Virus record (IMG/VR): IMGVR_UViG_3300042924_008490
Coordinates: 61,584-125,583 of that record
Reading direction: 5' to 3' (one strand)
Source of the DNA: a virus
Lineage: Duplodnaviria > Caudoviricetes
DNA: 64,000 nucleotides
Shown: positions 11,850 through 62,311 of the stretch, one piece after another
How positions within the stretch are numbered: the first letter of the stretch is position 1
How the letters are laid out: each line of letters begins with the position of its first letter
The notes under the pieces: model-generated
The model's database searches: none
The model's input: only the letters and a program-made list of their open reading frames with translations
What the model was told of the DNA's origin: nothing
Translations under genes and position numbers: made by a program

Positions 11850-13237
11850 ACTCTTGTTCCTATTATTGTCACCTTTAATCCTGTAGCAGTTCCGTTCCCG
11901 ATTTGGTCTACATCTACCGTGATTTCCGCATCATCAGCCAATGCTGTATCAGATATAACAGGAGCTGTAGCAGCAGTTGTACTTGTTTTTTCAGTATTAT
12001 CTATTGTTAATTTTGTACTTAAAATAGATACTCCACCTTCATTTATATCCACAGTGAATATACTTCCCGAAGCCTGTGCAGTTGTTAATGAAGCCCTAAC
12101 AGATGTGACTGTCATCGCATGAGGCATCCTAAATGTTACCTTATTTGTTCCTGCAGTGATAGCAGTTGTTTCATCTGAACATGCAACTTGTATTTCTACA
12201 GGTAAAGGTGCTAACTTACTAATAGCAATAGCAGCACTTGCAGAAACATCTGCATTTACGATTGTACTTGCAGGACTTTGAAATACCCCATTTACAACTT
12301 TTGCAATTCCTGAACCTGCAACTGAAGGTAATGTTGTATGTACATGTGAAGGATGCAATGAATCAAAATAAAATCTTATTTGTCTTGATTGATTAACATT
12401 CTTTTGTGCCCACAATTCAATATAAATTCTATCAGTAGAAAGAATTGTCGTTTGTGGCATTGTAACATTGCCAATGTATTGTGCTATTGTTGTAGGGTCA
12501 TAAACATAAATATCATCAGAACTTGCTAATAATGTTGGTGCAGTTGCTCCATCATATTTATAAACTCTAATCTGAAATTGTGTTTGATTAGCATTACCTG
12601 TTCCACCTAAAATATCAACCCAAATGTTAAAATCCCAAAGACCTGCAGGAATATTTGTAACAGAAGGAGTTCCTACAATAGTAACAAACCCACACACTAA
12701 ACTATAAGAACCTTGAGATAGGTTTGCAGATGTAATAGAACCTGAACCAATGCTATAATTTATACCTAATTGACTTGGTGCAACAGGTGAAGTTGGCAGT
12801 CCTGTTGTCGGAGATATACTTGCTGTATTTTGATAATTGAAATAATAAAATATACCACCTCCGCCTGAACCCCCTGTGGGAACTGACTTAGGAGTCCACT
12901 CACTACCGCTCCATTGTAATGTCTGACCACTTATTGGAACTACATTGCTCACAGCATAGCCTTGCAATGCATCAACTTTAGGATTTGGATATGTTCCCGA
13001 TAAATCACCGCCTGCAGTAGTTCCTGAAATTGATGGAGGATATGCAGCTCCATTTATAGTATTTAAATCAATATTATCAACATTCAACAAATCTTTGTTG
13101 TTCATATCAATATCATTTGAACCTGCATTATTACCTGCAGTTAATACAGAATCTAAATCCTGTGAAACAGTACTTCCTGTGCCACCTGCCTCATAATAAT
13201 CAAAATTAGTAGTAAAAGGATTTATTTTATATGCCAT
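11846..13237 (-). CDS. Tail-fibre-like structural protein
   Basis: AGGDLSGTYPNP, GQTLQWSGSEW, IVNADVSASAAIAISKL fibre-type segments. Confidence 0.65.
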   Translation of the reverse strand: MAYKINPFTTNFDYYEAGGTGSTVSQDLDSVLTAGNNAGSNDIDMNNKDLLNVDNIDLNTINGAAYPPSISGTTAGGDLSGTYPNPKVDALQGYAVSNVVPISGQTLQWSGSEWTPKSVPTGGSGGGGIFYYFNYQNTASISPTTGLPTSPVAPSQLGINYSIGSGSITSANLSQGSYSLVCGFVTIVGTPSVTNIPAGLWDFNIWVDILGGTGNANQTQFQIRVYKYDGATAPTLLASSDDIYVYDPTTIAQYIGNVTMPQTTILSTDRIYIELWAQKNVNQSRQIRFYFDSLHPSHVHTTLPSVAGSGIAKVVNGVFQSPASTIVNADVSASAAIAISKLAPLPVEIQVACSDETTAITAGTNKVTFRMPHAMTVTSVRASLTTAQASGSIFTVDINEGGVSILSTKLTIDNTEKTSTTAATAPVISDTALADDAEITVDVDQIGNGTATGLKVTIIGTRV

Positions 13238-13425
13238 TTTATTATATTTTATTATAAATATTATAGGTTCTGCTTATTTTTATATTTATCCGAAAATAAT
13301 TACCTTTTAGTTTACTTAATTCATCTAAAATGGCATACATCGTAGCAGGATTTTTACTGTAAGGCATATTTTTTTATTATAAATATTTCAATTTCTGTTA
13401 TTATCATATTTATATTAAAATTGTT

Positions 13426-13719
13426 ATGGCTGAATATTTCAAAAAGAAAATTATAGGAAAACTCTCAGAGAAACCTATAATCGTCAAAAAAATCACCCCT
13501 CAACCTAAAACCGAAACAATTAACCCAATTGTTGAAGAGGAATCTCCAAAAGAAGAAATTGAAATTTCTGTTGAAGAAATTCAAATCTCTATTGAACCTG
13601 AAACAATTTCAGAAGAACCTATTACAGTTCCGAATGAAACTGTAATTGTTTCCGAAGAACCCGAAGTTCCTCTTGAAGAATCAACACCAAAAAAATCAAG
13701 AAAGAAAAAAATACAATAA
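13426..13719 (+). CDS. Glu/Pro-rich low-complexity hypothetical protein
   Basis: ORF; ATATTTATA at 13406-13414; hairpin downstream. Confidence 0.55.
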   Translation: MAEYFKKKIIGKLSEKPIIVKKITPQPKTETINPIVEEESPKEEIEISVEEIQISIEPETISEEPITVPNETVIVSEEPEVPLEESTPKKSRKKKIQ

Positions 13720-13720
13720 A

Positions 13721-13750
13721 AAAAAGGGGCTGCTCAATTGAACAGCCCTT
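13721..13750. terminator. Terminator-like hairpin between convergent genes
   Basis: AAGGGGCTG...CAGCCCTT inverted repeat after an A-run. Confidence 0.55.
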
Positions 13751-13809
13751 ATATATTTCCCTTTGAAAATATCTCAACTCAATTTTGTAACAAAAATGGT
13801 AAATATTTG

Positions 13810-14145
13810 TTACATCTCATCTTCACATCCACAATCTTCAACCTCATTCATCATGAAATCAAAAACTTGGTCTAAATTGTTCTTTGCAACAGCCACGTGG
13901 TCTTCAGCCCAATCATGACCGTTCTGAAGAATACCTTCAATCTCCTCTCTATCCAATTCCATCAAAAGCTCAATCTGTCTTTTCATCTGTTGCAAATTGG
14001 AAAAAAACATATAATTTTCAGTCAATTCCCCTTGCTTGCTTTTGACTTTCATCATATTTCCCTTTGAAACCATACCCATTTCATTTGAACCCATCTCATC
14101 AGAAACCATTTCTCTGATAATTCTTTTAAAATCATTCATTCTCAT
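13810..14145 (-). CDS. Hypothetical protein with class II-like leader
   Basis: MRMNDFKRIIREMVSDE N-terminus. Confidence 0.55.
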   Translation of the reverse strand: MRMNDFKRIIREMVSDEMGSNEMGMVSKGNMMKVKSKQGELTENYMFFSNLQQMKRQIELLMELDREEIEGILQNGHDWAEDHVAVAKNNLDQVFDFMMNEVEDCGCEDEM

Positions 14146-14477
14146 AACTCTTGTGGATTTTGTGGTAATTGTTCTGTTCCAATTGAAGGCATCTGCTCAA
14201 CTGCTTGTGGAATTTCCTTTGAAACCACTTTTCTCTCCCTTGATTTTCTGAATCCTAACAAACCTGCTCCAATACCAACAAATATGATGCTCTGCGTGAT
14301 AACATCAATATCCTTGTTCAAAAACATCTTGTCAACACATCCCATCAAAAAACAAAGCGTTCCAATGACACATATCAAAACTCCCATAGTTCCCGATGCA
14401 GATGTCTTACCATTCTCATTTGAAGTCATTTGCCCAAATGAAAATCTTTCAATCATACTCTTTAATACTTGTTTCAT
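14142..14477 (-). CDS. Two-TM membrane protein (holin-like)
   Basis: Two hydrophobic helices, basic residues after TM2. Confidence 0.45.
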   Translation of the reverse strand: MKQVLKSMIERFSFGQMTSNENGKTSASGTMGVLICVIGTLCFLMGCVDKMFLNKDIDVITQSIIFVGIGAGLLGFRKSRERKVVSKEIPQAVEQMPSIGTEQLPQNPQEL

Positions 14478-14542
14478 AATTTTATCTTTTTACATATATA
14501 AATATAGGGCAATGGTCAGAAACTTTTCTCGTATCACTCAAA

Positions 14543-15328
14543 TTATTTTTTATGCAAATCCCAATACCCATATAATGCCTTCAATATTCTACGCTTGTCA
14601 CCATCCCTCAATGAATCAAACCTCATAATAACACTCTTCTTAAACTTATCAAGCAAATCCTCAAAACTCATCCCATCCCTAAATATATCCGCCATCGTCT
14701 GACTGAACCTCGCCCAATACTCATGTGGTAAACTTAAATATACTTGATACTCCTCATCACTCATATCATTTTCACCCCTTTTGTTATAAAAAGCAACACT
14801 CCTCTTGTCTGATACATACTTTCCACCACTCCTATAAGCATCATAAGCATGCTGCAACTCATGAATCAATGTACTTCTAAAGGAGATTCCCATAGCCTTC
14901 TTAAGAATCTGTTCAGCTTCCGATGAACTAATATCATCAGCCTTCTCGTAAAACCCAACCTGATATACCAAACTACCCTCAAAATCTTTATTATATTTTA
15001 TTTTAACATTCCCATCATAAACCCCCTTCATACGCTTGTTTTTATCTTCATAAAAAACTATATTAACTGAAGAATTCTTGATAAAATCACCTAACAAATC
15101 ATACAACCCCCCATCAGTAATTTCAACCAAACTGATATAGTCACTGTTAAAATAACCATCAACAGGAAGACCTGCATCTATCTGCTTCTTAACCCTCTTG
15201 ACAACAGATAAGTTTTCTTTTGAAAATTTAGCTATAACCTCTTCGGCTAACTTTCGAAGCTCCCCCTGCTCATTGATACCCTCAAAAAGAATTCTATACT
15301 GACCCTCTGTTAATATTAGCTTTTTCAT
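14543..15328 (-). CDS. HExxH metallopeptidase-like protein with class I leader
   Basis: LIHELQHAYD, YLSLPHEYWAR; N-terminus MKKLILTEGQY. Confidence 0.6.
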   Translation of the reverse strand: MKKLILTEGQYRILFEGINEQGELRKLAEEVIAKFSKENLSVVKRVKKQIDAGLPVDGYFNSDYISLVEITDGGLYDLLGDFIKNSSVNIVFYEDKNKRMKGVYDGNVKIKYNKDFEGSLVYQVGFYEKADDISSSEAEQILKKAMGISFRSTLIHELQHAYDAYRSGGKYVSDKRSVAFYNKRGENDMSDEEYQVYLSLPHEYWARFSQTMADIFRDGMSFEDLLDKFKKSVIMRFDSLRDGDKRRILKALYGYWDLHKK

Positions 15329-15361
15329 CTTAATACCTAAATATAATTACTTTAGTAACTA

Positions 15362-16219
15362 TCATTTTTTTACATATATAAATATAGGGCAATGGTCAGA
15401 AACTTTTCTCGCATCACTCAAACGAACAAATTTTTTGTAAAAATGCAAAACCCCACTTGAACCAACCTTTACCTTTCTTGAAACAAAAAAATTGTCATAC
15501 TCCTCATTCAACCACTCTCCCCCCTCTTTCATCTTCAATGATGTCCTTTCACCTTTAAACCCAACATTGCACCATACCTTCATCCCATCAAAAGACCTAT
15601 CCCTCTCAGACAAATTAAAGTCACCCATCAATATGAATTTCTTATTCTTATATTTACCTCCAAGAGAACCCAATTCCTTAACCTCCAATGAAGGATTCTT
15701 TTCTTTCGGAACTAAATGAACATTCCCTAAGATATACTCATCAACACCATCAACCAAAAACTTTCCAATATATGGCTCTCTGTTCACAACAGAAGCCAAA
15801 GTAGCTTCCAATGAATGACTAACCAACTTCACCCTATCTTTCCTAAACAAATATGCATACCTCTCTGAACCACTTCCACTCGTGGGATTAGATATAACAT
15901 AATCCCATGAAGCCCCACTTCTATCCAATAAATCATCCAACTTCGCAACAGCCTGTGAACCAAATTCCGAAACAGATACCTCTTGAACTGCAACAATATC
16001 ATAAGAACTCATAATACCACTGATAAAAACCATAACAGAATCATTTGCCATCTTAGACTTTCCAAAATTCTGTATATTCCACGAAAGTATACGCAATTCC
16101 TTTGAATCACTTCTTCCCTTTGAAGCAAAGCTTTGCTGACCAAAGGCTTCAGCCTTTGAAACCAAATTTGCTCCTATGAATATAAAAACTAATACAATTA
16201 TGACAACTATTTTCTTCAT
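15362..16219 (-). CDS. Secreted endonuclease/exonuclease/phosphatase (DNase I-like)
   Basis: SWNIQNFG, AVQEV, ERYAYLF, REPY, MGDFN, YDNFF, SDHCPI; N-terminal signal peptide. Confidence 0.9.
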   Translation of the reverse strand: MKKIVVIIVLVFIFIGANLVSKAEAFGQQSFASKGRSDSKELRILSWNIQNFGKSKMANDSVMVFISGIMSSYDIVAVQEVSVSEFGSQAVAKLDDLLDRSGASWDYVISNPTSGSGSERYAYLFRKDRVKLVSHSLEATLASVVNREPYIGKFLVDGVDEYILGNVHLVPKEKNPSLEVKELGSLGGKYKNKKFILMGDFNLSERDRSFDGMKVWCNVGFKGERTSLKMKEGGEWLNEEYDNFFVSRKVKVGSSGVLHFYKKFVRLSDARKVSDHCPIFIYVKK

Positions 16220-51653: not shown

Positions 51654-52280
51654 ATGAAAAACTTTCAAACAATCCTGAAGGAAAAAGGATATTATCAAGG
51701 GGAAATCGATGGAATCATTGGACAGATGAGCTTAAAAGCGACAACTGCATTTGTTTCTGATGAAATTAAGAAACGTAATTGGGTGCAGCCTACAACAGAA
51801 TTCGTATGGATTAGAACCGACCAAACATTGGATAATAAGTTTGCTGATGTATGTGTGAGGTTCAATGGAGGTGTGGCTGATATGGTGATGGCGTGTAGTA
51901 CAGTGCCAGGGGATTACTCCATCTTCAATCCCCTCACAGTAGGTGGAATCACAGGTGCAGCCATTGCATGCGAACAGCAGCAAATTCAATCACATACCTA
52001 CGTAAGCAGCCCTAATTGGAAATCCCTTTGGCTTGGAGCACCTTATTTCATGCAAACAGGTGCTGTTGAAATATTCCGTGATGGAAATAAGAACCGTATA
52101 ATTGATAAAAATATCAGAACCAAAGGATGGTATGGAATAAACTTCCATAGAGCAGGTTTAGGTTCTTTTGTAGATACTTGGTCTGCAGGATGTCAAGTGG
52201 TCGCTGATAACAGTTGGTTTCAAGCGATTAAAATCTTCCAAAATGGACAAAAGATAAACTATACCTTGATTGAACTATAA
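51654..52280 (+). CDS. Putative endolysin/cell-wall enzyme: PG-binding domain plus L,D-transpeptidase-like catalytic domain
   Basis: LKEKGYYQGEIDGIIG; GINFHRA...WSAGCQV. Confidence 0.7.
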   Translation: MKNFQTILKEKGYYQGEIDGIIGQMSLKATTAFVSDEIKKRNWVQPTTEFVWIRTDQTLDNKFADVCVRFNGGVADMVMACSTVPGDYSIFNPLTVGGITGAAIACEQQQIQSHTYVSSPNWKSLWLGAPYFMQTGAVEIFRDGNKNRIIDKNIRTKGWYGINFHRAGLGSFVDTWSAGCQVVADNSWFQAIKIFQNGQKINYTLIEL

Positions 52281-53145: not shown

Positions 53146-53481
53146 GGTAATTTGGGTTATGGTAATTTGAATCAGTTATGTTAGGTGGGTATTTTGAATA
53201 TTTTTTATTTAAGGCTTTTTTTTATAAATAGATTTCGAAATTTTTAAATTGAGAACAAAAATATTTTGGATTTTTTTTGTTTTTATGGATTTTAATCTTA
53301 CCTTTGTTGGGTAGGAGCATATTTTGGAAAATTTAGAAATAAGCTCAAATCTCAAAATGTTTTCAAATTCCAATTTCTTCAGGAAACAAACATACCTCTA
53401 TTTAGCACAAAAACAGCCCTTCTTTGAATTTAACCACAAAAGTGGTATCTTTATATTCCAAAAGAAATAAAATGTCTTACA

Positions 53482-56400
53482 ATGGAAAATCTCGGTAAAA
53501 AAATTAATAGTCAACTTCATAGTCAACTTAATAGTGAAATTACTAATCAACTTGATAGGCAATTTGAAAGTCAACTTCGAAATCAAATTATTTATCAACT
53601 TCATAGTAGACTTAATAGACAACTTTTTTGGCAACTTGATAGTGAACTTTATGAGCAACTTAAAAAACAAATGAAGGATGGAAAATTTAAATGAACAAAT
53701 TGATAGCGGTTTTAGGAGTCAAATTGATTTTGAACTCTGTAGGGAACTTGAATATCGGCTCGATAGGTATCTCAAAATTAAACTTCATAATAAATCTCAA
53801 CTTCTTAGTCCGTTTTATAGTGAAATTAATAGACAAATTCATATACAACTTCAAAATCAAATGGAGCATGAAAAATTTAAATAAAGAAGAATGCAGTGGT
53901 CTTAATGAGCCATTGCTTAACAGGCTTGAATGGGAGTTCAATAGAAAGCTTGAAGTTCAGCTTGAACGTAAGCTTTATAATGAAATTCATAGGGAAGTCA
54001 AATGGGGGCTTTACGGTCAAATTCAAAGGCAACTTGAAAAATTAAAGGAAGATGAAAAATCTCAATGATAAAATATGTAATCAACTTCGTAACCAACTTC
54101 GAAATCAAATTCGTAATCAACTTGAAAGTCAACTTGAAAGTCAACTTTATTGGCAACTTAATAGGCAACTTCAAAATCAAATGGAACATGAAAAATTTAA
54201 ATAAAGAGCTTGATAATGGTCTTAATAATAAAGTTAGTCCGCTTTATAGTGAGGTTGTTAGTTACCTTCAAATTGACAATAAACTTTATTGGGAACTTGA
54301 ACGTCTGCTTGATAGGGATGTCAGAGAGTTACTTTATAGTGGACTTAATAGTCAACTTTATAATCAGCTTTATTTACAAATGGAACATGGAAAATTTAAA
54401 TAAGAAAATCTTTAATAGTATTGATAGTAAACTTCATAGTCAACTGAGTAGTAAATTTCATTGGAGGCTTTACAGTGAGATTAAAAGTGGGGTTAAAACT
54501 CAAATGGAACATGGAAAATTTAAATAAGAAAATCAGTAATGGAATAGCAGGGGAGTTCATTAAGCTCAGTCTTATGCAACATTTAAATTTAGAATGGGGA
54601 TTGAGTAGTATGCTTATTGGTAAATTGGATGGGGTAACTGTTGGTTTTAACATGCAACTTGGTAGTCAACTTAAAAAAAATATAACAGATGGAAAATTTT
54701 AATCTTATATTGACTAAAAAAATTAGGAGTCAACTTTATAGGCAAATTAATAGACAATTTTATAGTCAACTTGATAGGCAACTTCGTAGTCAATTTAATA
54801 TTCAACTTAGTAGTCAACTTGATTGGCAACTTCATTGGGAGCTTAATAGTCAACTCCATAGTAAAATTAATAGTCAAATTAATAATCAACTTTATTGGCA
54901 ACTTCATTGGGAGCTTAATGAACAACTTAAAACTCAAATGAAAGATGGAAAATTTAAATAAGAAAATGTATAGGGGTTTTCATATTAAACTTGATAGTGA
55001 ACTTGATTACCAAATTTGCAGGCAACTTAAAAAACAAATGAAGGATGGAAAATCTCAGTAAAAAAATTAATAGTCAACTTCACAGTCAACTTTATGATAA
55101 ACTTTATGGGCAACTTTATAGTCCACTTGATAGACAACTTCATAATCAACTTCATAATAAACTTGATAGACAACTTGAAAGTCAAATTTATGAGCAACTT
55201 TATGGGCAACAACGTGTTCAACTTAGAAGGCAACTTAAAAAAACTAAAGGAATATGAAAAATCTCAATAATAAAATCTGTAATCAACTTAGTGAAAATAT
55301 TAATTTTCAACTTAATAAAAAAAAATTAGATTGGCAGCTTAGTGTAGAGGTTTATGATAAATTGAATGCCCCACTTTACATTAATTTACGCAGTCAGCTT
55401 AACGGTCGCATTGGTACACAACTTTACAGGGAGATTAATTTACTTCATTGGGAATTTAATGAACAATTTATAAAACAAATGGAAGATGGAAAATTTAAAT
55501 GATAAAATCCGTAGTGGTCTTAATTTGCAACTTGATATTCAACTTGATTGGCAAAGTTATTGGGGCTATAGGGACTATAGAAACCTAATTCGTAATCAAC
55601 TTGAAAGTCGACTTTATTGGCAACTTGATAGTGGACTTGATAATCTACTTAGTAATCAACTTAAAACTCAAATGAAGAATGGAAAATTTAAATAAGAAAA
55701 TCCGTAGGGGTTTTAATATTAAACTTGATAGTGAACTTAACAACGAACTTGATAGGCGAAGTTATTGGGACTATAAAACCCTAATTCGTAATCAACTTCG
55801 TAATCAACTTGAAAGTCAACTTTTTTGGATACTTGATGAACGACTTGGTGAACAACTTAAAACTCAAATGGAACATGGAAAATCTCAGTAAAAAAATATG
55901 TAATCAACTTTGTAGTCAACTTGATAGTCAACTTGAAAATCAAATTAATAATCAACTTAAAACTCAAATGGAGAATGAAAAATTTTAATGAGAAAATCCG
56001 TAATCAACTTCGTAGTGAACTTCATAATAAACTTTATAAGCAAATTGATAGAAAACTTGCTATAGCTGTTCATTTGGAACTTGACAGTCAAATAGGTATT
56101 CAACCCTGTTTTGAAATTAATAAGCAGCTTAAACGATTAAATGGAAGATGAAAAATCTCAATAGGAAAATATATAGTCAACTTGGTAATCAACTTGATAG
56201 GCTAATTTTTTGGCAATTTGAAAGGCAACTTCGTAGTGAACTCGGTAAAAAAATTCGTAGTCCGCTTCGTAGACAATTCTATTGGCAGATTAATGAACAA
56301 ATTAAAACTCAAATGAAAGATGGAAAATCTCAGTAAAAAAATATGTAATCAACTTCTTAGTACACTTTACAGTCAACTTGGTAGAAAACTTCAAAATCAA

Positions 56401-59322
56401 CTTATTAATAAACTTAATAGACAACTTTATTGGCAATTTGATAGTCAACTTAGTAATCAACTTGAAACTCAAATGAAAGATGGAAAATTTAAATGAAGAG
56501 CTAAATAATAATAATCAACTTAGTAGTCAACTAAATAATCAAATCGATAGACAACTTGAAAGTCAAGTTTATGAGCACCTTTTTTGGCAAATCCGTATCC
56601 AACTTAATAGGCAATTGTATTCACCATTATATAATCCACTTTTTAATAGAATTTATAATCAAATGGAGCATGGAAAATCTTAGTGATAAAATTTATTGGG
56701 AGATATATAGAAGTTTTCATAATACGATTTGTTCTGAAACTTATAGTGGAATAGAATTTAAACTTCGAAAGAAGCTTGAGGAGAGTCTTTGTGAGGATAT
56801 TGAGGTTAAATGTCGTTGGCAGCTTTGTGGTGAAATTAATTTTCAACTTGAAAAAAATATTAAAAATGAAGAATAAGAATGATGAAATAACTGAAGGATT
56901 TGATTCTTTTAATAAAAATCTTCAATTGGAGATTATGAGTCAATTACAGCCATATGGTATTCATGCAAGGCTTGGTAATTTGCTTTCTGAGAAAATTAAC
57001 AGGAGTCTTAGATGGCAATTAAGAACTCAATTGGATATGTGCTTGATTGACTTTAAGATTAAAAAAAGTTATGTTTGAAATATGGAAAATCTTAGTAAAG
57101 ATATTAATAATGAAATTTATAGTCAATTAACTAATCAACTCCGTAGTCTACTCGGTAGTCAAATTGATTGGCAACTTCGTAGTAAACTTCATAGTCAAAT
57201 TGATAATCAACTTCATTGGGAATTTAATGAACAAATTAAAATTCAAATGGAACATGAATAATTTAAATGATAAAATTTGTGAAGATATAGATTTACTTCG
57301 CAGGAATCTCAATATTGATTTAAGAAAGCCACTTGATATCTATCTTTATAGAAGTTTGTATAGAGGGGTTATGGATGAGCAGATTGATGGGATTTTTTGG
57401 CAAATGTCTTTAATGGTTATGAACAAAATAAAAAATATTAAGAAAGATGAAGAATTTGAATTCTAAGATACACAGAGATATATATATCGATTTCATTCAT
57501 GAAATTGGTGAAGAGTTGACTGAAGGGAAGATAGATGGGGATTTTCTTTTTGAGCTTGACAGATTGATTTTGTCAAATGTGCTTTTTGATGCAAGGCGTA
57601 GTTTTAGATTGATTAATTCTCAAGTGAAACATAAAATTTCTAATGAAAAATCTGAACAATAAGCTTGAAAATAGGCTTAATAGAAAAATTGTGGACAAGC
57701 TCTATGTTCAAATCACTAAAAACCAAGATAGTGAGCTTCGTAGTCAACTTGATTGGCAACTTCATAGGAAAATTCGATTAAAAATTTTTAGGGGAATCGT
57801 TTGGAAGATGAGTGATAAACTACTAATTAAGCAACTTAAAAATAAATTGAAGGATGGAAAATCTAAATAAAAAACTTTGTAGTCAAATTGATAGGAAACT
57901 TGATGGGAAACTTAATAGTCAAATCTATAGTCAACTTCGTAGGCAACTTGAGAATCAACTTGAAAGGCAACTTGATTGGCAACTTGATTGGCAACTTCGC
58001 AGTCAACTTTATTGGGAACTTGAAAGTCAACTTGGTAATCAACTTAAAACTCAATTGAAGGATGGAAAATCTAAATAACAGGATGATGGTTTGTCTATAT
58101 TCTAATTTAGGAGGAGAGCTTCATAGGGAGGTTAGATGTAGTCTGAATAAAAAGGTTAGCAGTTTGATTGAGAGGCAGCTTCTAAGGAAATTTTGGAAAG
58201 ATATAGATTTAGAATTTAATAGATTAATAACAAATCAATTGAAACATGGAAAATATCAGTAAAGATATTAATAGTGAACTTAATAGCCAAATTCATATAC
58301 GACTCCGTAGTCAACTCGGTAGTCAACTTAAAGTTGCTCGTGAAATGCAACTTCTTAGTCCACTTTACAGTCAACTCGGTAATCAACTTGATAGGCAACT
58401 TTATAACCAATTTAGTACTCAAATGAAACATGGAAAATCTCAGTAAAGATATTAATAGTGAAATTTATAGTCAATTAACTAAACAACTCCATAGTCAACT
58501 CGGTAGTCAACTTAAAGTTGCTAATGAAATGCTACTTGGTCGTCAACTTATTAGTCAACTCACTCTTCAATTTAATATGGGACTTTGTAGTCTACTTGAT
58601 AGGCAACTTAAAAATCAAATGAAAAATGGAAAATCTCAGTAATAAAGTAAATATAAATATTCAAATGAAAATTTATAATATTCTCCACAGGCAAATTGAT
58701 AAAAAGGTTGGTATGAAAGTTCGTCTATTGATAGATAGACAACTTGGTAGTCGAATTGATAGTCAACTTCGTAATCAACTTGATAGGCAACTTGATAATC
58801 GACTTGAAAGGCTAATTTTTTGGCAAATTGATAATCAACTCAAATAACTGATTGCGTTGATAGCAAACTTGACTGGCAACTGAGTGAAGGTATTAATAGA
58901 TTACTTGAATTACATGTTAATAATTTAAAATAATATGAAAAATCTCAATAGAAAGATATATAGTCAACTTTATAGTCAATTGGATAGTCAAATTGAAAGT
59001 CAATGTAATGAACAAATTTATTGGCAAATATATTGGCAACTTCGTACTAAAATTGATATGCTACTTCATAATCAACTTAAAAGTAGAATTAAAAGTCAAC
59101 TTAAAAATCAAATGAAAAATGGAAAATCTCAATAGAAAAATTTATATTAAATTTGCGGATAGGTTTCATGGGGAATTTCGTAATGAGACTGAAAGGGAGC
59201 TTGATAGTTATCTTGTGGATGATGTTTTGTCTCGATTGAAGGTTAGGATATTTGTAGACTTAAATGTAGGAATCAATTTACAACTTCAGGAATTTAATAA
59301 TAATTCAAAAGAAATAATATGA
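53482..59322 (+). repeat. Tandem array of ~31 overlapping paralogous mini-CDS (M[EK]NL...xxQL repeats...QMxxGKxx)
   Basis: Conserved junction CAACTTAAAACTCAAATGRARSATGRAAAATYT; 12-nt internal period around CAACTT. Confidence 0.9.
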
Positions 59323-60152
59323 AATATATAATAGGAATTTTTTGGAAGTACAGATGGTCATTGGCATTGATATATTTTTTGATAGTGGTATGTGAGCTTT
59401 TGTATTTATTTTTTTGGCAGATATTAGGTTTGGCTATTGATGGGTTATTGGTTGGTGACTATTTTTATTTGGTTATATTGTTATTGGTAAATTTCTTTGG
59501 GAATTTATTACATTACCGTAGGATGATATATGATACGAGGGTATATATGCGGATAAACAATGACATTGTATATTCTTATTTAGGAGGATGTAAATTAGAT
59601 GTATCTGCTAAATCTGCTCGTACTGAGATGGCGAGTAACGTGGTTAATTTTTTTGAGAATGATGTGACTTATTACATAGGTTCTTTTATTCATATATTTG
59701 GCAGTTTATATTTCATATTTTATTTGAAGTATGAGGTTGGGTTGATTGTGATATGCAGTATAGTCTTCATAGGGTTTATTGTATATAAATTTTATTCTAA
59801 GATAGGTCAGATAACTTTGTTGATACATAATCATATGGAGGGTAAGGTTAAGGTTCTTGAATTTGGTGGGGATATTGGCATTCGTAATTTTTATGAGAGG
59901 CGGAAATTTTTGTTGGAGAAGAATTCTGAGATACAAGCGAAGCATTGGTTTTCTTTGAATATGGTTAGGTTGTTATTTTTGTTAGGATGTATAGTTGTGT
60001 TTACAAATGGGAATTATGGTTTGACACAGGGGCAGACGATATCGATGTATATGTATATAAATCAATTTTTGATTTCTTTGATGGTTATTCCTATAGCTGT
60101 GGAGACGTTTATGAGGATTAAGGATGTTATAAAAAGGTTGGGTAAATTTTAA
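59319..60152 (+). CDS. ABC-transporter six-transmembrane-domain-like protein without ATPase domain
   Basis: Multiple TM helices; LGLAIDGL, RRMIYDTRVY, VVNFFE, YMYINQF motifs. Confidence 0.65.
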   Translation: MKYIIGIFWKYRWSLALIYFLIVVCELLYLFFWQILGLAIDGLLVGDYFYLVILLLVNFFGNLLHYRRMIYDTRVYMRINNDIVYSYLGGCKLDVSAKSARTEMASNVVNFFENDVTYYIGSFIHIFGSLYFIFYLKYEVGLIVICSIVFIGFIVYKFYSKIGQITLLIHNHMEGKVKVLEFGGDIGIRNFYERRKFLLEKNSEIQAKHWFSLNMVRLLFLLGCIVVFTNGNYGLTQGQTISMYMYINQFLISLMVIPIAVETFMRIKDVIKRLGKF

Positions 60153-60164
60153 CTCAAAAGAAAC

Positions 60165-61648
60165 ATGAAAAATCTCAATAAAGAAATTTGTAATCAATTT
60201 GAAGTGAAATTTCGCCATAAGTTACTACATCAGCTTTACAATCAATGTGACATTCAAACGAAAGATATGGTGCTTAGTCATGTTAAGATTGAGCTTTTTC
60301 AGCAGTTATACAGAAATCTTAAAACTCAAATAGATTGGTTGCTGAAGAAAAATTTGAAATAAATTTCTTTTTTTGAAATATTATTTTTACCTTTGAGGGA
60401 AATAATTTAATTCTGATGGAACATGGAAAATTTAAAGGATAAAATTCATAGTCAACTTGGTACTCAAATTGATTGGAAACTTCATAGTCAACTTGGTACT
60501 CAAATTGATTGGAAACTTCATAGTCAACTTGGTACTCAAATTGATGGGAAACTTTATAATGAACTTGATAGTCAACTTAATAGGCAAGTCAATAATCAAC
60601 TTGATAGGCTAATTTTTTGGCAAATTGACAATCAACTTAAAACTCAAATGGTGCATGGAAAATCTCAGTAGAAAGATACATAGTTCCCAATTTGTTAAAA
60701 TTCATAGGGAGCTTAATGGAGAACTTGATTGGAGATTTAGTCTTAAAGTGCAGAATTATATCACCGATGAATTACAAATGAGAGCTGTCAAAATTATATT
60801 TGGTTTATTGAATATACAACTTTTGAAGGAACTTAAAAAGAAAAATGGAAAATTTTAATCGTGAAATCAGTAATAGAGTTCATGAAGAACTTTGCAATAA
60901 AGCCTATATTGAACTTTCTAAGCAATTATATTGGGAGCTCTATAGAACACTTCATACTCAATTGATGAATCCAATTGAAAAGCAATGTAGTGAGCAATTT
61001 TTTTGGCAACTTTATGGGCAACTTCAAAATCAAATGGAACATGAAAAATCTCAATAGAAAAATATGTAGTAAACTTAATAGTCAACTTGATAGTGGACTG
61101 CATAGACAAATTCGTGAGCAACTTCATTCGGAATTAGGTATGCAACTTGATAGGCAACTTTATGAGCAACTTCTTAATAAACTTGAAAATCAAATTTATG
61201 TGCAACTTTATGGGCGAATCAATAGGCAACTTAGAACTCAAATGGAAGATGGAAAATCTCAATAGAAAAATTCGTAATAGTATTCATTTGAAATTTAATA
61301 ATAGTGTTGAGAGGGTAAATTATCAATTCGATAGTAAATTACATAGTGAACTCCGTATGGAATTTAACAATCCAATTTACAATCAAATCAATTGGGAGCT
61401 TCATAGCAAACTAAATAATCAAATTCAAATGGAACATGGAAAATCTTAATTATGAAATTCTTCATCAATCTATGTGGAATATGTATGATGAAATAAAAAA
61501 ATCAAATTTTCAAATGGATGGTATGGAGGATTCAAAAAGAGTTGAAATTTTAGAATTTTATCTGCTTCCTTACTTTGTAAAATATGAAGAATATGAAATA
61601 GCTAATGAATTAAAAAAGCAAATTTTAGCGATTAGAAAATCTCATTAA
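60165..61648 (+). repeat. Continuation of the mini-CDS array (~7 units; last unit has an unrelated body)
   Basis: Starts at 60165, 60423, 60655, 60845, 61041, 61249, 61436; new TAccTTTG promoter near 60388. Confidence 0.85.
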
Positions 61649-61672: not shown

Positions 61673-62311
61673 ATGACAGCAGTAGAATGGTTTAAAGAAA
61701 ATATTTCTCACATGATACACTCTTACGATGAAACAGAACTTGAAGATTTATTTCAACAAGCTAAAGAAATGGAAAAGGAGCAGATAATTGATGCTTGTAA
61801 TTATGGAGATTTTGAAGAATTAGGAGAAAAATATTACAATGAAACCTACAAAAAAGATAAATTATGAAACAGACAGCAGTAGAATTCTTAGCAAAACAAT
61901 CATTAAATTATTTAAATGATGAACAAGAAAATAATTTAATAAAAGTAATTCAACAAGCCTTAGAAATGGAAAAGCAGCAGATAATAGATGCATTTCAATA
62001 TAAGTTTTTTCATCCTTATGCGGAAAATGAACCCGAAACTTATTACAATGAAACCTACAAAATAAAATAATATGAAACAAGAAACACTTGAAGAAGCTGC
62101 TGAAAAATATCATAATAAAATATCTAAAAAAAGAAATACTCAATTAGGTGTACCTTCAGAAGATTTTATTGCAGGTGTTAAATGGCAACAACAAAGAATG
62201 TATAGTGAGGAAGATATTCATAAAATAGTTGAAAGTTATCAAAATACTATGGAAAATAATCCTACTTATATAACTTATAACCAATGGTTTGAACAATTTA
62301 AAAAGAAATGA
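61673..62311 (+). other. Three small related hypothetical CDS (61673-61867, 61864-62070, 62072-62311)
   Basis: TAVE...QQAxEMEKxQIIDA...YYNETYK shared by the first two; MKQ start shared by the last two. Confidence 0.6.

What the first reader, a model, noticed from the sequence alone, without database searches (positions are those of the whole stretch)
53482..61648. Array of ~38 overlapping, diversified mini-genes built from a 12-nt xxQL repeat
Seen: about 8 kb of back-to-back ~35-90 aa ORFs. Nearly all start M[EK]NL[NS], most end QLKxQM[KE][DHN]GK[FS][KQ], and many bodies are tetrapeptide repeats (SQLD, RQLY, WQLH). I counted 38 starts. Of 35 contiguous start-to-start spacings, 22 equal 4 mod 12 (100, 124, 136, 160, 172, 184, 196, 208, 232, 256 nt), so unit length changes in whole 12-nt steps. 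Junctions and QL positions are conserved while the intervening residues vary widely; pure-repeat units are interspersed with highly diverged ones. Inference: a recombination/slippage-driven repertoire of small amphipathic helical proteins with a constant scaffold and a variable face, for example decoys or inhibitors of host defence or transcription factors. Similar tetrapeptide tracts occur inside some larger phage proteins, but I know of no described free-standing array like this.
Basis: partly seen in the sequence, partly recalled or inferred. Interest (0 to 1): 0.9.

Follow-up and report, generated by a model that had tools for sequence, protein, structure and literature searches.

The report
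Detached DUF6745 repeat mini-gene array
A large uncultured lake-water phage carries 38 back-to-back mini-genes, each encoding one long helix built from a four-residue repeat that related phages carry inside a single unstudied protein (DUF6745), and what the set does is still unknown.

Summary
38 mini-ORFs (37-90 aa) fill 53482-61648, and 22 of 37 start-to-start spacings are 4 mod 12. At 29 junctions the next ATG lies 14-20 nt before the stop, in the +1 frame. Selection keeps the ORFs open: 18 orthologous pairs with a sister phage (L019) differ at 384 of 3,624 nt without one new stop, where neutral simulation expects about 21. Pooled dN/dS is high, 0.71. One unit folds as a single helix (pLDDT 94).

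The array is not without relatives. The same xxQL tract sits inside hundreds of larger proteins, and 81 of 117 scanned carry DUF6745. In L019 the array encloses a repeat-less DUF6745-like gene. A complex model docks a mini-protein's conserved N-cap at the site where relatives carry the tract (0.78 against a best control of 0.00). This supports binding but does not show it.

The window's own 125-kb record, about 46% complete, has no DUF6745 gene. Function is untested. The nearest studied analogue, Tweety gp54, is not a detectable homologue.

This scan has noted the same class before on other DNA. A search of the held library for 'DUF6745' found 0 papers.

The parts
53447..53454 (+). TATCTTTA box about 30 nt before the first unit. 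It is a near match to the TAnnTTTG box common in this window and is a candidate promoter of the array.
   Evidence: Sequence printed. TAnnTTTG occurs 185 times in the window against 117.5 expected. Its promoter function is inferred.
53482..53694 (+). unit 1, 70 aa, xxQL-rich
53678..53884 (+). unit 2, 68 aa; ortholog L019 9808 (74% aa)
53868..54068 (+). unit 3, 66 aa, idiosyncratic; ortholog L019 10001 (86%). Seven further database orthologs at 80-91% identity.
54052..54204 (+). unit 4, 50 aa, nearly pure repeat
54188..54403 (+). unit 5, 71 aa; ortholog L019 10393 (76%)
54387..54527 (+). unit 6, 46 aa. It is absent from one contig of run X5, which joins 54376 to 54501 and so skips 124 nt.
54511..54702 (+). 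unit 7, 63 aa, idiosyncratic; ortholog L019 10800 (89%)
54689..54961 (+). unit 8, 90 aa, the longest, 14 Q[LIF] repeats
54945..55061 (+). unit 9, 38 aa
55045..55257 (+). unit 10, 70 aa; ortholog L019 10185 (80%, at a different place in that array); 4-nt ATGA overlap with unit 11
55254..55502 (+). unit 11, 82 aa; ortholog L019 12092 (88%)
55486..55695 (+). unit 12, 69 aa
55679..55891 (+). unit 13, 70 aa; ortholog L019 11518 (79%), the unit used in the complex model
55875..55988 (+). unit 14, 37 aa, the shortest
55975..56151 (+). unit 15, 58 aa; ortholog L019 11919 (98%)
56148..56336 (+). unit 16, 62 aa; ortholog L019 11334 (71%)
56320..56496 (+). unit 17, 58 aa
56480..56683 (+). unit 18, 67 aa; ortholog L019 12568 (60%). 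In L019, five more units and the DUF6745-like operon lie between this unit's ortholog and that of unit 19.
56670..56876 (+). unit 19, 68 aa, idiosyncratic; ortholog L019 15701 (57%)
56866..57078 (+). unit 20, 70 aa (starts MKNKND); ortholog L019 16103 (61%)
57082..57261 (+). unit 21, 59 aa. A TATGTTTG box lies at 57070. A joint 57087 to 57260 (172 nt, one unit) is seen in one X5 contig, and what lies between the two sides is not known.
57254..57466 (+). unit 22, 70 aa (starts MNNLND), idiosyncratic
57447..57662 (+). unit 23, 71 aa, no Q[LIF] repeat left; ortholog L019 16500 (89%)
57643..57870 (+). unit 24, 75 aa
57854..58078 (+). unit 25, 74 aa, 12 repeats; folded as one helix spanning residues 2-73 (pLDDT 94.2)
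58062..58262 (+). unit 26, 66 aa, idiosyncratic
58246..58446 (+). unit 27, 66 aa; ortholog L019 17124 (88%)
58430..58642 (+). unit 28, 70 aa; ortholog L019 17332 (77%)
58626..58847 (+). unit 29, 73 aa; ends early at ...WQIDNQLK without a junction
58850..58930 (+). remnant of a unit body without a start codon (one frame reads ...DSKLDWQLSEGINRLLELHVNNLK)
58935..59135 (+). unit 30, 66 aa
59119..59322 (+). unit 31, 67 aa, idiosyncratic; its stop overlaps the start of the ABC_membrane_3 ORF by 4 nt
59319..60152 (+). inserted 277-aa membrane protein, ABC_membrane_3 (PF13748, E 4.7e-21), with no ATPase domain; absent from the L019 array
60165..60362 (+). unit 32, 65 aa; ends without a junction
60388..60422 (+). 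TACCTTTG box (60388-60395) followed by a remnant junction (...LMEHGK reading) just before unit 33; a candidate internal promoter
   Evidence: promoter function is inferred
60423..60671 (+). unit 33, 82 aa, with a 36-nt higher-order repeat
60655..60858 (+). unit 34, 67 aa, idiosyncratic; ortholog L019 18064 (94%)
60845..61057 (+). unit 35, 70 aa; ortholog L019 18255 (60%)
61041..61265 (+). unit 36, 74 aa
61249..61449 (+). unit 37, 66 aa; ortholog L019 18813 (88%)
61436..61648 (+). unit 38, 70 aa. It keeps only the N-cap and has a non-repeat body. It is absent from L019, where the last unit ends with the same ...IRQSH-type tail.

Best explanation
The stretch is a polycistronic array of 38 translated mini-genes in a large (about 270 kb) uncultured lake-water phage, probably of a Bacteroidota host.

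Each gene encodes one continuous alpha-helix. It consists of a conserved N-terminal cap (M-E/K-N-L-N/S-x-K-I) and a variable number of x-x-Q-L tetrads.

Each unit is 12n+4 nt long, so each gene sits one frame further on than the last. The next ATG lies 14 nt before the preceding stop codon (17-nt overlap). Ribosomes therefore most likely re-start at every junction, which is translational coupling (inferred).

The genes are free-standing copies of the hypervariable tetrapeptide tract that hundreds of phage and prophage proteins, mostly DUF6745, carry between their N- and C-terminal domains (shown by profile search).

Most likely mechanism (inferred, supported by a model only): each mini-protein clips by its N-cap onto a repeat-less DUF6745-like core protein, at the place where relatives have the tract built in. 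One core could then carry any of about 38 alternative helices of different length and surface.

The sister phage encodes such a core inside its array. In this window's record the core has not been found.

What the complex does is unknown. By analogy with mycobacteriophage Tweety gp54, whose repeat number tunes escape from a prophage defence, a role in matching variable host or rival-phage targets is the leading guess.
For: Real, selected ORFs:
- Only the annotated frame is open in all 38 units.
- 18 ortholog pairs with L019 differ at 384 of 3,624 aligned nt with no new in-frame stop. Simulation with the same number and spectrum of changes gives a mean of 21.1 new stops, and 0 of 2,000 replicates give none.
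- The L019 array also consists of 37 intact units.

Initiation at each junction:
- M1 is invariant in 38 of 38 units.
- 29 junctions have a 14-20 nt overlap.
- Few TAnnTTTG boxes lie inside the array on the + strand.

The N-cap is the selected element. The units that are not overlapped by a 14-20 nt junction from a preceding unit (starts 53482, 55254, 56148, 57082, 58935, 60165, 60423) all keep it. All 9 units without a following 14-20 nt overlap lack the C-terminal GK[FS][KQ].

Helix: AlphaFold2 gives one helix over residues 2-73, pLDDT 94.2.

Link to DUF6745:
- The profile of 28 units finds 699 proteins (E <= 1e-3), mostly 300-700 aa with long xxQL tracts.
- 81 of the 117 long hits scanned carry PF20530.
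- L019's array encloses a 394-aa repeat-less relative. The Atlas feature score is 0.96, and all 30 hits fall in one Pfam set, of which the three rows shown are DUF6745. It has 422 homologues, many with PF20530 on record.
- In a 57%-identical homologue the tract replaces residues 76-106.

Docking:
- The complex model of the L019 core with L019 unit 11518 scores 0.78 against a best control of 0.00.
- That mark was reached by 58 of 80 solved complexes and 2 of 110 mismatched pairs. My own alignments were used, so these counts hold only roughly.
- The runs agree in at least 85% of their contacts, and the partner's pLDDT is at least 71.
- The pairs with least expected error join unit residues 3-8 to core residues 47-53, 110-113 and 159-163.

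Complementary layout in 40 viral loci:
- 18 tract-bearing genes, of which 1 has a period-4 mini-ORF nearby.
- 8 repeat-less genes, of which 4 have such mini-ORFs (2, 38, 5 and 2).

Analogue: passages read in PMC2884959 and PMC9262239 on Tweety gp54.
Against: - The window's own record (125,583 nt, CheckV 46%) has no DUF6745-like gene by protein search or by PF20530. At the place where L019 has the core operon, units 18 and 19 of the window are directly adjacent.
- The L019 394-aa protein itself does not reach PF20530 in hmmscan at E <= 0.01. Its membership rests on homologues and Atlas features.
- Protein-level constraint is weak. Pooled dN/dS is 0.71, against 0.93 and 1.14 in the other two frames, and differences by codon position are 101, 84 and 95.
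- Two repeat-less relatives closest to L019's core (L022 and L023, one lineage) have no mini-genes within the flanks held.
- Docking is a model's own confidence, not a measurement.
- Tweety gp54 is not a detectable homologue: Pfam finds 0 families, it falls in phrog_3416, and hhalign gives probability 0.1. The functional analogy therefore rests on architecture only.
- The xxQL profile is of low complexity, so part of the similarity to DUF6745 tracts could be convergent.
Confidence: 0.55

Rival explanations
1. The mini-proteins work without any DUF6745 core. They would be free helices that bundle with each other or bind host or rival-phage proteins, for example as decoys or inhibitors.
For: - No core gene is found in the 125-kb record, yet all 38 ORFs are intact. 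Identical sequence is found in four other lake runs.
- Idiosyncratic units are conserved one by one between the two phages at 57-98% aa identity, as expected if each has its own target.
- L022 and L023 show that core and array can occur apart.
Against: - The record is only about 46% complete, so a core may lie in the missing half.
- The sister phage's array encloses a core.
- The conserved N-cap is explained by the docking model. Free decoys would have no stated reason to keep it.
- No target is known.
Confidence: 0.25
2. The array is a selfish or neutral expansion of a 12-nt minisatellite. Its ORFs would be kept open only so that ribosomes keep travelling along the transcript, or not selected at all, and the peptides would have no function of their own.
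For: - dN/dS is 0.71 and changes are spread almost evenly over codon positions.
- Pure-repeat units turn over quickly between the two phages.
- Whole units are lost in some populations.
- Decayed pieces exist at 58850-58930 and 60400-60422.
Against: - There are zero new stops where about 21 are expected.
- Diverged units with no repeats left (for example 57447 and 61436) are still open only in the expected frame.
- The N-cap is invariant at M1 and N3 in 38 of 38 units.
- At x positions, second codon letters are nearly always A or G, which excludes hydrophobic residues.
- Seven further orthologs of unit 3 in other samples keep 80-91% identity.
Confidence: 0.08
3. The units are joined into long polyproteins by a programmed +1 ribosomal frameshift at every junction. 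This is the alternative raised in the scan's second note on this stretch.
For: - 31 of 37 spacings are 1 mod 3, so each unit lies in the +1 frame of the last.
- The +1 frame is often open well upstream of the next ATG.
Against: - ATG is kept at every one of the 38 unit starts here and at every L019 unit found. A frameshift would not need it.
- The 14 nt between ATG and stop come in two different forms, TTTAAAT and TCTCA[AG]T, with no shared slippery motif.
- At Q-M-K junctions a TGA closes the +1 frame two codons before the ATG.
- Six junctions do not step by +1.
Confidence: 0.03
4. The units are precursors of exported peptides. The common N-cap would be a leader recognised by the ABC-type membrane protein encoded inside the array.
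For: - An ABC_membrane_3 ORF (E 4.7e-21) is embedded in the array and overlaps unit 31 by 4 nt.
- Some sources name its homologues 'bacteriocin/lantibiotic exporter'.
Against: - The ORF has no ATPase or peptidase domain.
- It is absent from the sister phage's array.
- Its 115 homologues are stand-alone proteins of about 277 aa.
- The units have no double-glycine or signal-peptide-like leader and are hydrophilic helices of 37-90 aa.
Confidence: 0.04

Closest known systems
   Same: - The same x-x-Q-L period-4 repeat, encoded by 12-nt units and of very variable length. The profile of 28 units hits these tracts down to E 8.9e-53, and 81 of 117 long hits carry DUF6745.
- The sister phage's array encloses a repeat-less member.
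   Different: - Here the tract is not part of the protein. It exists as 38 separate genes, each with its own start, stop and N-cap.
- No DUF6745 domain is present in the units, nor in the 125-kb record.
- The family itself is unstudied: 'DUF6745' occurs in 0 papers of the held library, and its fold matched nothing solved.
Mycobacteriophage Tweety gp54 (with Che8 gp57 and PMC gp51): a tetrapeptide-repeat protein and 'tunable' counter-defence against Phrann gp29/gp30
   Same: - A 12-nt, four-residue repeat with two fixed and two variable positions.
- Copy number differs between related phages: 48, 26 and 15 (PMC2884959, passages read).
- Changes in repeat number let the phage escape a prophage defence (PMC9262239, passage read).
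   Different: - The gp54 repeat is Ala-Ala-x-x, in one polypeptide between two domains.
- There is no detectable homology to the DUF6745-like core: Pfam finds 0 families, gp54 falls in phrog_3416, and hhalign gives probability 0.1.
- gp54 is one gene, not a library of genes.
- Supplementary tables of PMC2884959 were not seen.
Detached tetrapeptide-repeat mini-gene arrays beside repeat-less DUF6745 genes, noted earlier in this scan on other DNA (e.g. e1-5319380, e1-5976703, e1-5669455); unpublished AI notes
   Same: - Tandem, coupled mini-genes with a fixed cap and a variable period-4 body.
- A repeat-less DUF6745 gene nearby.
- A model that docks the mini-protein on the core. I reproduced the layout in viral loci L048-L050 and L058 and the docking for L019.
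   Different: In this window no core gene is present in the record, the repeat is xxQL, the units step +1 in frame with a 17-nt overlap, and a membrane-protein gene is inserted.
Translationally coupled overlapping phage genes (stop and start overlap, re-initiation)
   Same: The start codon lies just upstream of, or overlaps, the preceding stop at 29 junctions by 14-20 nt and at 2 junctions by the 4-nt ATGA.
   Different: The overlap is unusually long and uniform, and it is repeated about 30 times in a row as part of the repeated unit itself. Coupling is inferred, not measured.

Membership tests
DUF6745 (PF20530) proteins with internal tetrapeptide tract | Period-4 tract encoded by 12-nt repeats, with two conserved and two variable positions | tested here: met
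   TRF finds period 12. The x-x-Q-L composition is shown. The profile of the units hits the tracts of these proteins.
DUF6745 (PF20530) proteins with internal tetrapeptide tract | The DUF6745 domain in the same polypeptide | tested here: not met
   7 array units scanned against Pfam gave no family above its cut-off. The units are 37-90 aa.
DUF6745 (PF20530) proteins with internal tetrapeptide tract | A DUF6745 gene in the same genome | tested here: inconclusive
   None was found in the 125,583-nt record, but the record is about 46% complete. One is present inside the sister phage's array.
Split layout: repeat-less DUF6745 core plus free-standing repeat mini-genes | The core lacks the tract while mini-genes with the tract lie nearby | tested here: inconclusive
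   Met in L019 and in 4 of 8 repeat-less viral loci, against 1 of 18 tract-bearing loci. In the window itself the core is not found.
Split layout: repeat-less DUF6745 core plus free-standing repeat mini-genes | The mini-protein binds the core | tested here: inconclusive
   The model supports binding for the L019 pair: 0.78 against a best control of 0.00, with the marks quoted. This is a prediction only, and no window protein was in the job.
Tweety gp54-type tunable counter-defence | Sequence homology to gp54 (phrog_3416) | tested here: not met
   Six array units scanned against PHROGs gave no hit to phrog_3416. The L019 core and P0040 gave no PHROG hit. hhalign of A4 against gp54 gave probability 0.1.
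Tweety gp54-type tunable counter-defence | Repeat number changes alter escape from a defence system | not testable with these tools
   This needs a cultured host and phage. It is known only for Tweety (PMC9262239 passage).
Programmed +1 frameshift polyprotein | A conserved slippery site, and no need for a start codon at the junction | tested here: not met
   There are two different junction forms with no shared slippery motif. ATG is invariant in 38 of 38 units.
Diversity-generating retroelement targets | A reverse transcriptase and a template repeat in the genome | tested here: inconclusive
   No RVT_1 match was found in the 125-kb record, but the record is incomplete. No template repeat was looked for.
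ABC-exported peptide precursors | A leader peptide together with a transporter that has ATPase and peptidase domains | tested here: not met
   The embedded ORF matches only ABC_membrane_3. The units show no leader-type motif.

The most novel reading that the evidence does not exclude
The phage lineage has taken a hypervariable helical tract out of its DUF6745 protein and turned it into a genomic library of about 38 separately translated helices. Each helix clips by a common N-cap onto one core protein. A single infection would then produce dozens of variants of one complex. This would be a protein-level, in-trans diversification system that renews itself by unit recombination and 12-nt slippage, and it might be used to match variable host defences or rival phages. 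In this window the library would persist although the core gene has moved or been lost.
Probability: 0.35. Interest if true: 0.9.

Novelty: new variant of a known kind. Interest (0 to 1): 0.72.

Why it matters
Hypervariable tetrapeptide tracts are widespread in phage accessory proteins. Only one of them, Tweety gp54, has a known role, which is tuning escape from a bacterial defence.

This array shows the same kind of tract as about 38 independent genes kept open by selection. In a sister phage they are predicted to dock back onto a repeat-less core.

If that is right, it is a new way for a virus to diversify one protein complex without mutating it: by choosing among many encoded inserts. It would also give the unstudied DUF6745 family, with hundreds to thousands of members, a testable mechanism.

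The array is also a clean natural case of some 30 consecutive overlapping stop and start junctions. That makes it useful for studying translational re-initiation in hosts that probably lack Shine-Dalgarno-led initiation.

Tried and rejected
- **Known families for the units.** Pfam and PHROGs gave nothing above threshold.
- **Junction pattern in IMG/VR.** The scan found 8 stretches with one match each, and none of them has an array.
- **Unit 3 as a protein query.** It found nothing in IMG/VR or in the cultured-phage collection. The L019 core also found nothing in the cultured-phage collection.
- **Fold of the L019 core.** Foldseek against PDB gave no match at E <= 0.001. VIA-align wide gave a best Z of 5.2 over 49 residues. 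No fold is assigned.
- **RNA evidence.** No RNA holder was listed among the 24 runs, so expression could not be examined.
- **Sister phage's whole record.** Searching it for the membrane gene failed because the record is not held.
- **Loose ends of contigs.** Those at 55453-55456, 60167, 60382 and elsewhere did not match L019 or the window. What adjoins the array in those variants is unknown.
- **Literature.** 'DUF6745' gave 0 papers. Three wider searches on tetrapeptide repeats, tandem arrays, jumbo phages and counter-defence listed nothing on free-standing arrays. The primary Tweety counter-defence paper is not in the searchable library, so I rely on a passage of the review PMC9262239. Supplementary tables of PMC2884959 were closed and not seen.
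- **Readings considered and rejected.** These were a frameshift polyprotein, a non-coding iteron array, a DGR target and exported peptides. See the rival explanations and the membership tests.
- **PHROG family phrog_31813.** Earlier notes name it for DUF6745. It was not reproduced for the two proteins I scanned at E <= 0.01.

Full report
**1. Where the window lies**

The window is the last 64 kb of a 125,583-nt linear IMG/VR virus record that CheckV rates 46% complete. It is AT-rich, with 26-35% G+C in 2-kb windows and 28-30% in the array. It has no tRNA genes.

It carries phage-type genes: an SNF2 helicase, a GP88-like protein, ArdC-N with a zincin peptidase, and ParB. The box TAnnTTTG occurs 185 times against 117.5 expected, and 0 of 100 shuffles reach that number. 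From my own knowledge this box resembles the Bacteroidota promoter element. Homologues of the sister phage's DUF6745-like gene occur in Sphingobacterium and Niabella. A Bacteroidota host is therefore an inference.

**2. The observation**

- One search lists 38 ORFs of 37-90 aa from 53482 to 61648, all on the + strand.
- M1 and N3 are invariant. Position 4 is L in 33 units, position 5 is N or S in 36, position 7 is K in 25 and position 8 is I in 29.
- 22 of 37 spacings are 4 mod 12, and 31 of 37 are 1 mod 3.
- At 29 junctions the stop lies 14-20 nt inside the next unit. The consensus is ...CAA ATG AAA GAT GGA AAA TTT AAA TAA, with ATG GAA AAT TTA AAT read in the +1 frame.
- All 28 DNA matches of a two-unit probe within the whole record fall inside the array. 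The record holds no second array.

**3. Are the ORFs real genes?**

Only the annotated frame is free of stops in all 38 units. The other frames hold 122, 570, 70, 266 and 197 stops. The diverged units without repeats are open in that frame alone.

A sister phage gives the key comparison. Locus L019 is 20 kb near the end of a 271,677-nt metagenome contig. It has a syntenic array of 37 intact units between the same flanking genes. Reciprocal best hits give 20 pairs, of which 18 have at least 57% identity. These are mainly the idiosyncratic units and lie mostly in the same order. The pure-repeat units between them do not pair up.

- Over the 18 pairs, 384 of 3,624 aligned nt differ and neither partner has a stop.
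- Placing 384 changes with the observed spectrum at random creates a mean of 21.1 new stops (range 4-37). None of 2,000 replicates has zero.
- One caveat: the pairs were chosen among intact ORFs. But both arrays are contiguous and leave almost no room for broken units. The two small remnants in the window are at 58850-58930 and 60400-60422.

Against strong protein constraint, pooled dN/dS over 17 pairs is 0.71, compared with 0.93 and 1.14 in the other frames. Two pairs exceed 3. Differences by codon position are 101, 84 and 95. Identity between orthologs is graded: L 0.90, Q 0.87, N-cap 0.85, x2 0.80, x1 0.73. At the x positions the second codon letter is nearly always A or G, so hydrophobic residues are avoided.

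I read this as translated genes under weak or diversifying selection on most residues, with firm selection on openness, the start and the N-cap.

**4. Independent DNA**

24 lake-water or freshwater DNA runs hold the stretch or parts of it. Contigs of four runs from four studies lie on it with no differences over up to 2,012 nt (56326-58337), across several junctions.

One X5 contig joins 54376 to 54501. It thereby skips 124 nt, which is exactly the spacing from unit 6 to unit 7. Another joint, 57087 to 57260, spans 172 nt, the spacing of unit 21, but what lies between its two sides is not known. Units are therefore gained or lost whole. Four ortholog pairs differ by 4 aa, that is 12 nt.

**5. 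Which cap matters?**

The units that are not overlapped by a 14-20 nt junction from a preceding unit still begin with the cap. Their starts are 53482, 55254, 56148, 57082, 58935, 60165 and 60423.

The 9 units whose stop is not 14-20 nt inside a next unit all lack the GK[FS][KQ] end. The C-terminal 'motif' is therefore the next gene's N-cap read in another frame.

**6. Structure**

AlphaFold2, using the alignment of 28 units, gives unit 25 as one helix over residues 2-73, with mean pLDDT 94.2.

**7. Relatives**

- Word-indexed search with the 28-unit profile found 35 proteins, all 50-125 aa mini-proteins. Some lie on contigs of 271-275 kb.
- The exhaustive search found 699 proteins at E <= 1e-3. 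Most of the best 150 are 300-700 aa with long central xxQL tracts.
- Of the 117 long hits I could pass to Pfam, 81 carry DUF6745. I passed 117 of 128 long hits; those over 800 aa or beyond the size limit were dropped.
- 'DUF6745' occurs in no paper of the held library.

**8. The sister phage's core**

L019's array is interrupted at 13558-15520 by three ORFs: a 96-aa ORF, a 394-aa ORF and a short third ORF that ends at a hairpin.

- The 394-aa protein does not itself reach PF20530 at E <= 0.01.
- The Atlas places it with DUF6745 clusters: score 0.96, all 30 hits in one Pfam set, the three rows shown being DUF6745 and mostly viral.
- It has 422 homologues at E <= 1e-5, many with PF20530 on record.
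- It has no tract. In a 57%-identical homologue, P0049, residues 75-196 (the tract) take the place of residues 76-106.
- Its AlphaFold2 model is confident (pLDDT 90.5) but matches no solved fold.

**9. Docking**

I ran the one complex job on the L019 core (alignment A4) and L019 unit 11518 (alignment A5). That unit is the ortholog of window unit 13.

- Verdict: the model supports binding and does not show it.
- Score 0.78 against a best of three controls of 0.00.
- The mark was reached by 58 of 80 solved complexes and 2 of 110 mismatched pairs. This holds only roughly, because my own alignments were used.
- The runs agree in at least 85% of their contacts, and the partner's pLDDT is at least 71.
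- The best-defined contacts join unit residues 3-8, the N-cap, to core residues 47-53, 110-113 and 159-163. Further contacts lie at 65-79 and 102-122, on both sides of the site where relatives carry the tract.

This gives the invariant N-cap a reason to exist.

**10. How general is the layout?**

I classed 40 IMG/VR loci that encode relatives of the core with a crude period-4 score. The same score finds only 14 of L019's 37 units, so it undercounts.

| Class of locus | Loci | With free period-4 mini-ORFs in the held flanks |
|---|---|---|
| Internal tract of 60 residues or more | 18 | 1 |
| Complete and repeat-less | 8 | 4 (L048: 2, L049: 38, L050: 5, L058: 2) |
| Ambiguous | 2 | not classed |
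| Gene cut by the locus end | 12 | not classed |

- L053 and L055 each have one weaker candidate, and L022 and L023 have none.
- Several loci are one lineage (L048-L050, L022/L023, L053/L055), so the independent count is small. Including L019, about 3 of 5 repeat-less lineages have mini-genes.

**11. This window's peculiarity**

No DUF6745-like gene is found in the 125-kb record. The L019 segment from 12764 to 15701, which holds five units and the core operon, has no counterpart between window units 18 and 19.

Instead, a stand-alone ABC_membrane_3 gene (E 4.7e-21) lies between units 31 and 32 and overlaps unit 31 by 4 nt. It has 115 homologues of about 277 aa and is absent from L019's array. 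I treat it as an inserted passenger gene.

Whether the core lies in the unsampled half of the genome is the main open point.

**12. Published analogue**

Earlier notes of this scan pointed to Tweety gp54.

- In PMC2884959 I read the passages describing 48 Ala-Ala-x-x repeats in Tweety gp54, 26 in Che8 gp57 and 15 in PMC gp51. Variation there is confined to the last two residues.
- In PMC9262239 I read the passage stating that defence-escape mutants change the repeat number, and that gp54 is a 'tunable' counter-defence against Phrann gp29/gp30.
- I fetched gp54. It has no Pfam family, belongs to phrog_3416, and shows no profile similarity to the core family (probability 0.1).

It is therefore an analogue in build, not a demonstrated relative.

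**13. Other readings**

- A frameshift-made polyprotein is unlikely. ATG is invariant, there are two junction forms without a common slippery site, and a TGA closes the +1 frame before many starts.
- A non-coding repeat is unlikely, given section 3.
- No reverse transcriptase is present in the record.
- Export through the embedded membrane protein lacks the needed domains.

**14. Verdict**

This is a real and striking array. The mini-genes are translated and are detached copies of the DUF6745 tetrapeptide tract. In the sister phage they are predicted to dock by their N-cap onto a repeat-less core. Function is unknown.

The scan has met this class repeatedly on other DNA, and I found no paper in the held library that describes it.

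Noticed in passing
window 59319-60152: A stand-alone ABC_membrane_3 membrane protein (277 aa, no ATPase domain) is inserted in the array and overlaps the preceding mini-gene by 4 nt. It has 115 homologues of the same size on environmental contigs, and it is absent from the sister phage's array.
   Followed up: partly
L019 13712-15500: The sister phage's core operon has three ORFs: a 96-aa ORF, the 394-aa DUF6745-like ORF and a short third ORF (about 77 aa). A G+C-rich hairpin with a T run follows, just before the next mini-gene. The two small ORFs have no Pfam or PHROG match where scanned (only the 96-aa ORF was).
   Followed up: partly
window 61673-62311: Three small paralogous ORFs (64, 68 and 79 aa, sharing a ...QQAKEMEKEQ-type motif) follow the array. 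Contigs of other lake runs show many joints, loose ends and several-fold higher summed depth here. This suggests another variable or widely shared element.
   Followed up: no
window 58850-58930 and 60400-60422: These are decayed pieces of units: a unit body without a start, and a junction remnant behind a TACCTTTG box. Units are therefore also lost by partial deletion.
   Followed up: partly
window, whole: TAnnTTTG boxes are enriched (185 against 117.5 expected). They are dense on the + strand at 23-47 kb, with about one per small gene, but sparse inside the array. This fits a few long transcripts across the array.
   Followed up: partly
window 51654-52280; L019 8570-9196; L022 14777-15103: A conserved 208-aa protein lies just upstream of the array in both phages. 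A homologue lies about 3.5 kb from the repeat-less DUF6745-like gene in L022 and L023, which have no array in the flanks held.
   Followed up: no
L049 10635-18848: An unrelated IMG/VR phage has about 38 period-4 (x-N-S-V type) mini-ORFs directly after its repeat-less 383-aa DUF6745-like gene. This is the same layout with a different repeat.
   Followed up: partly
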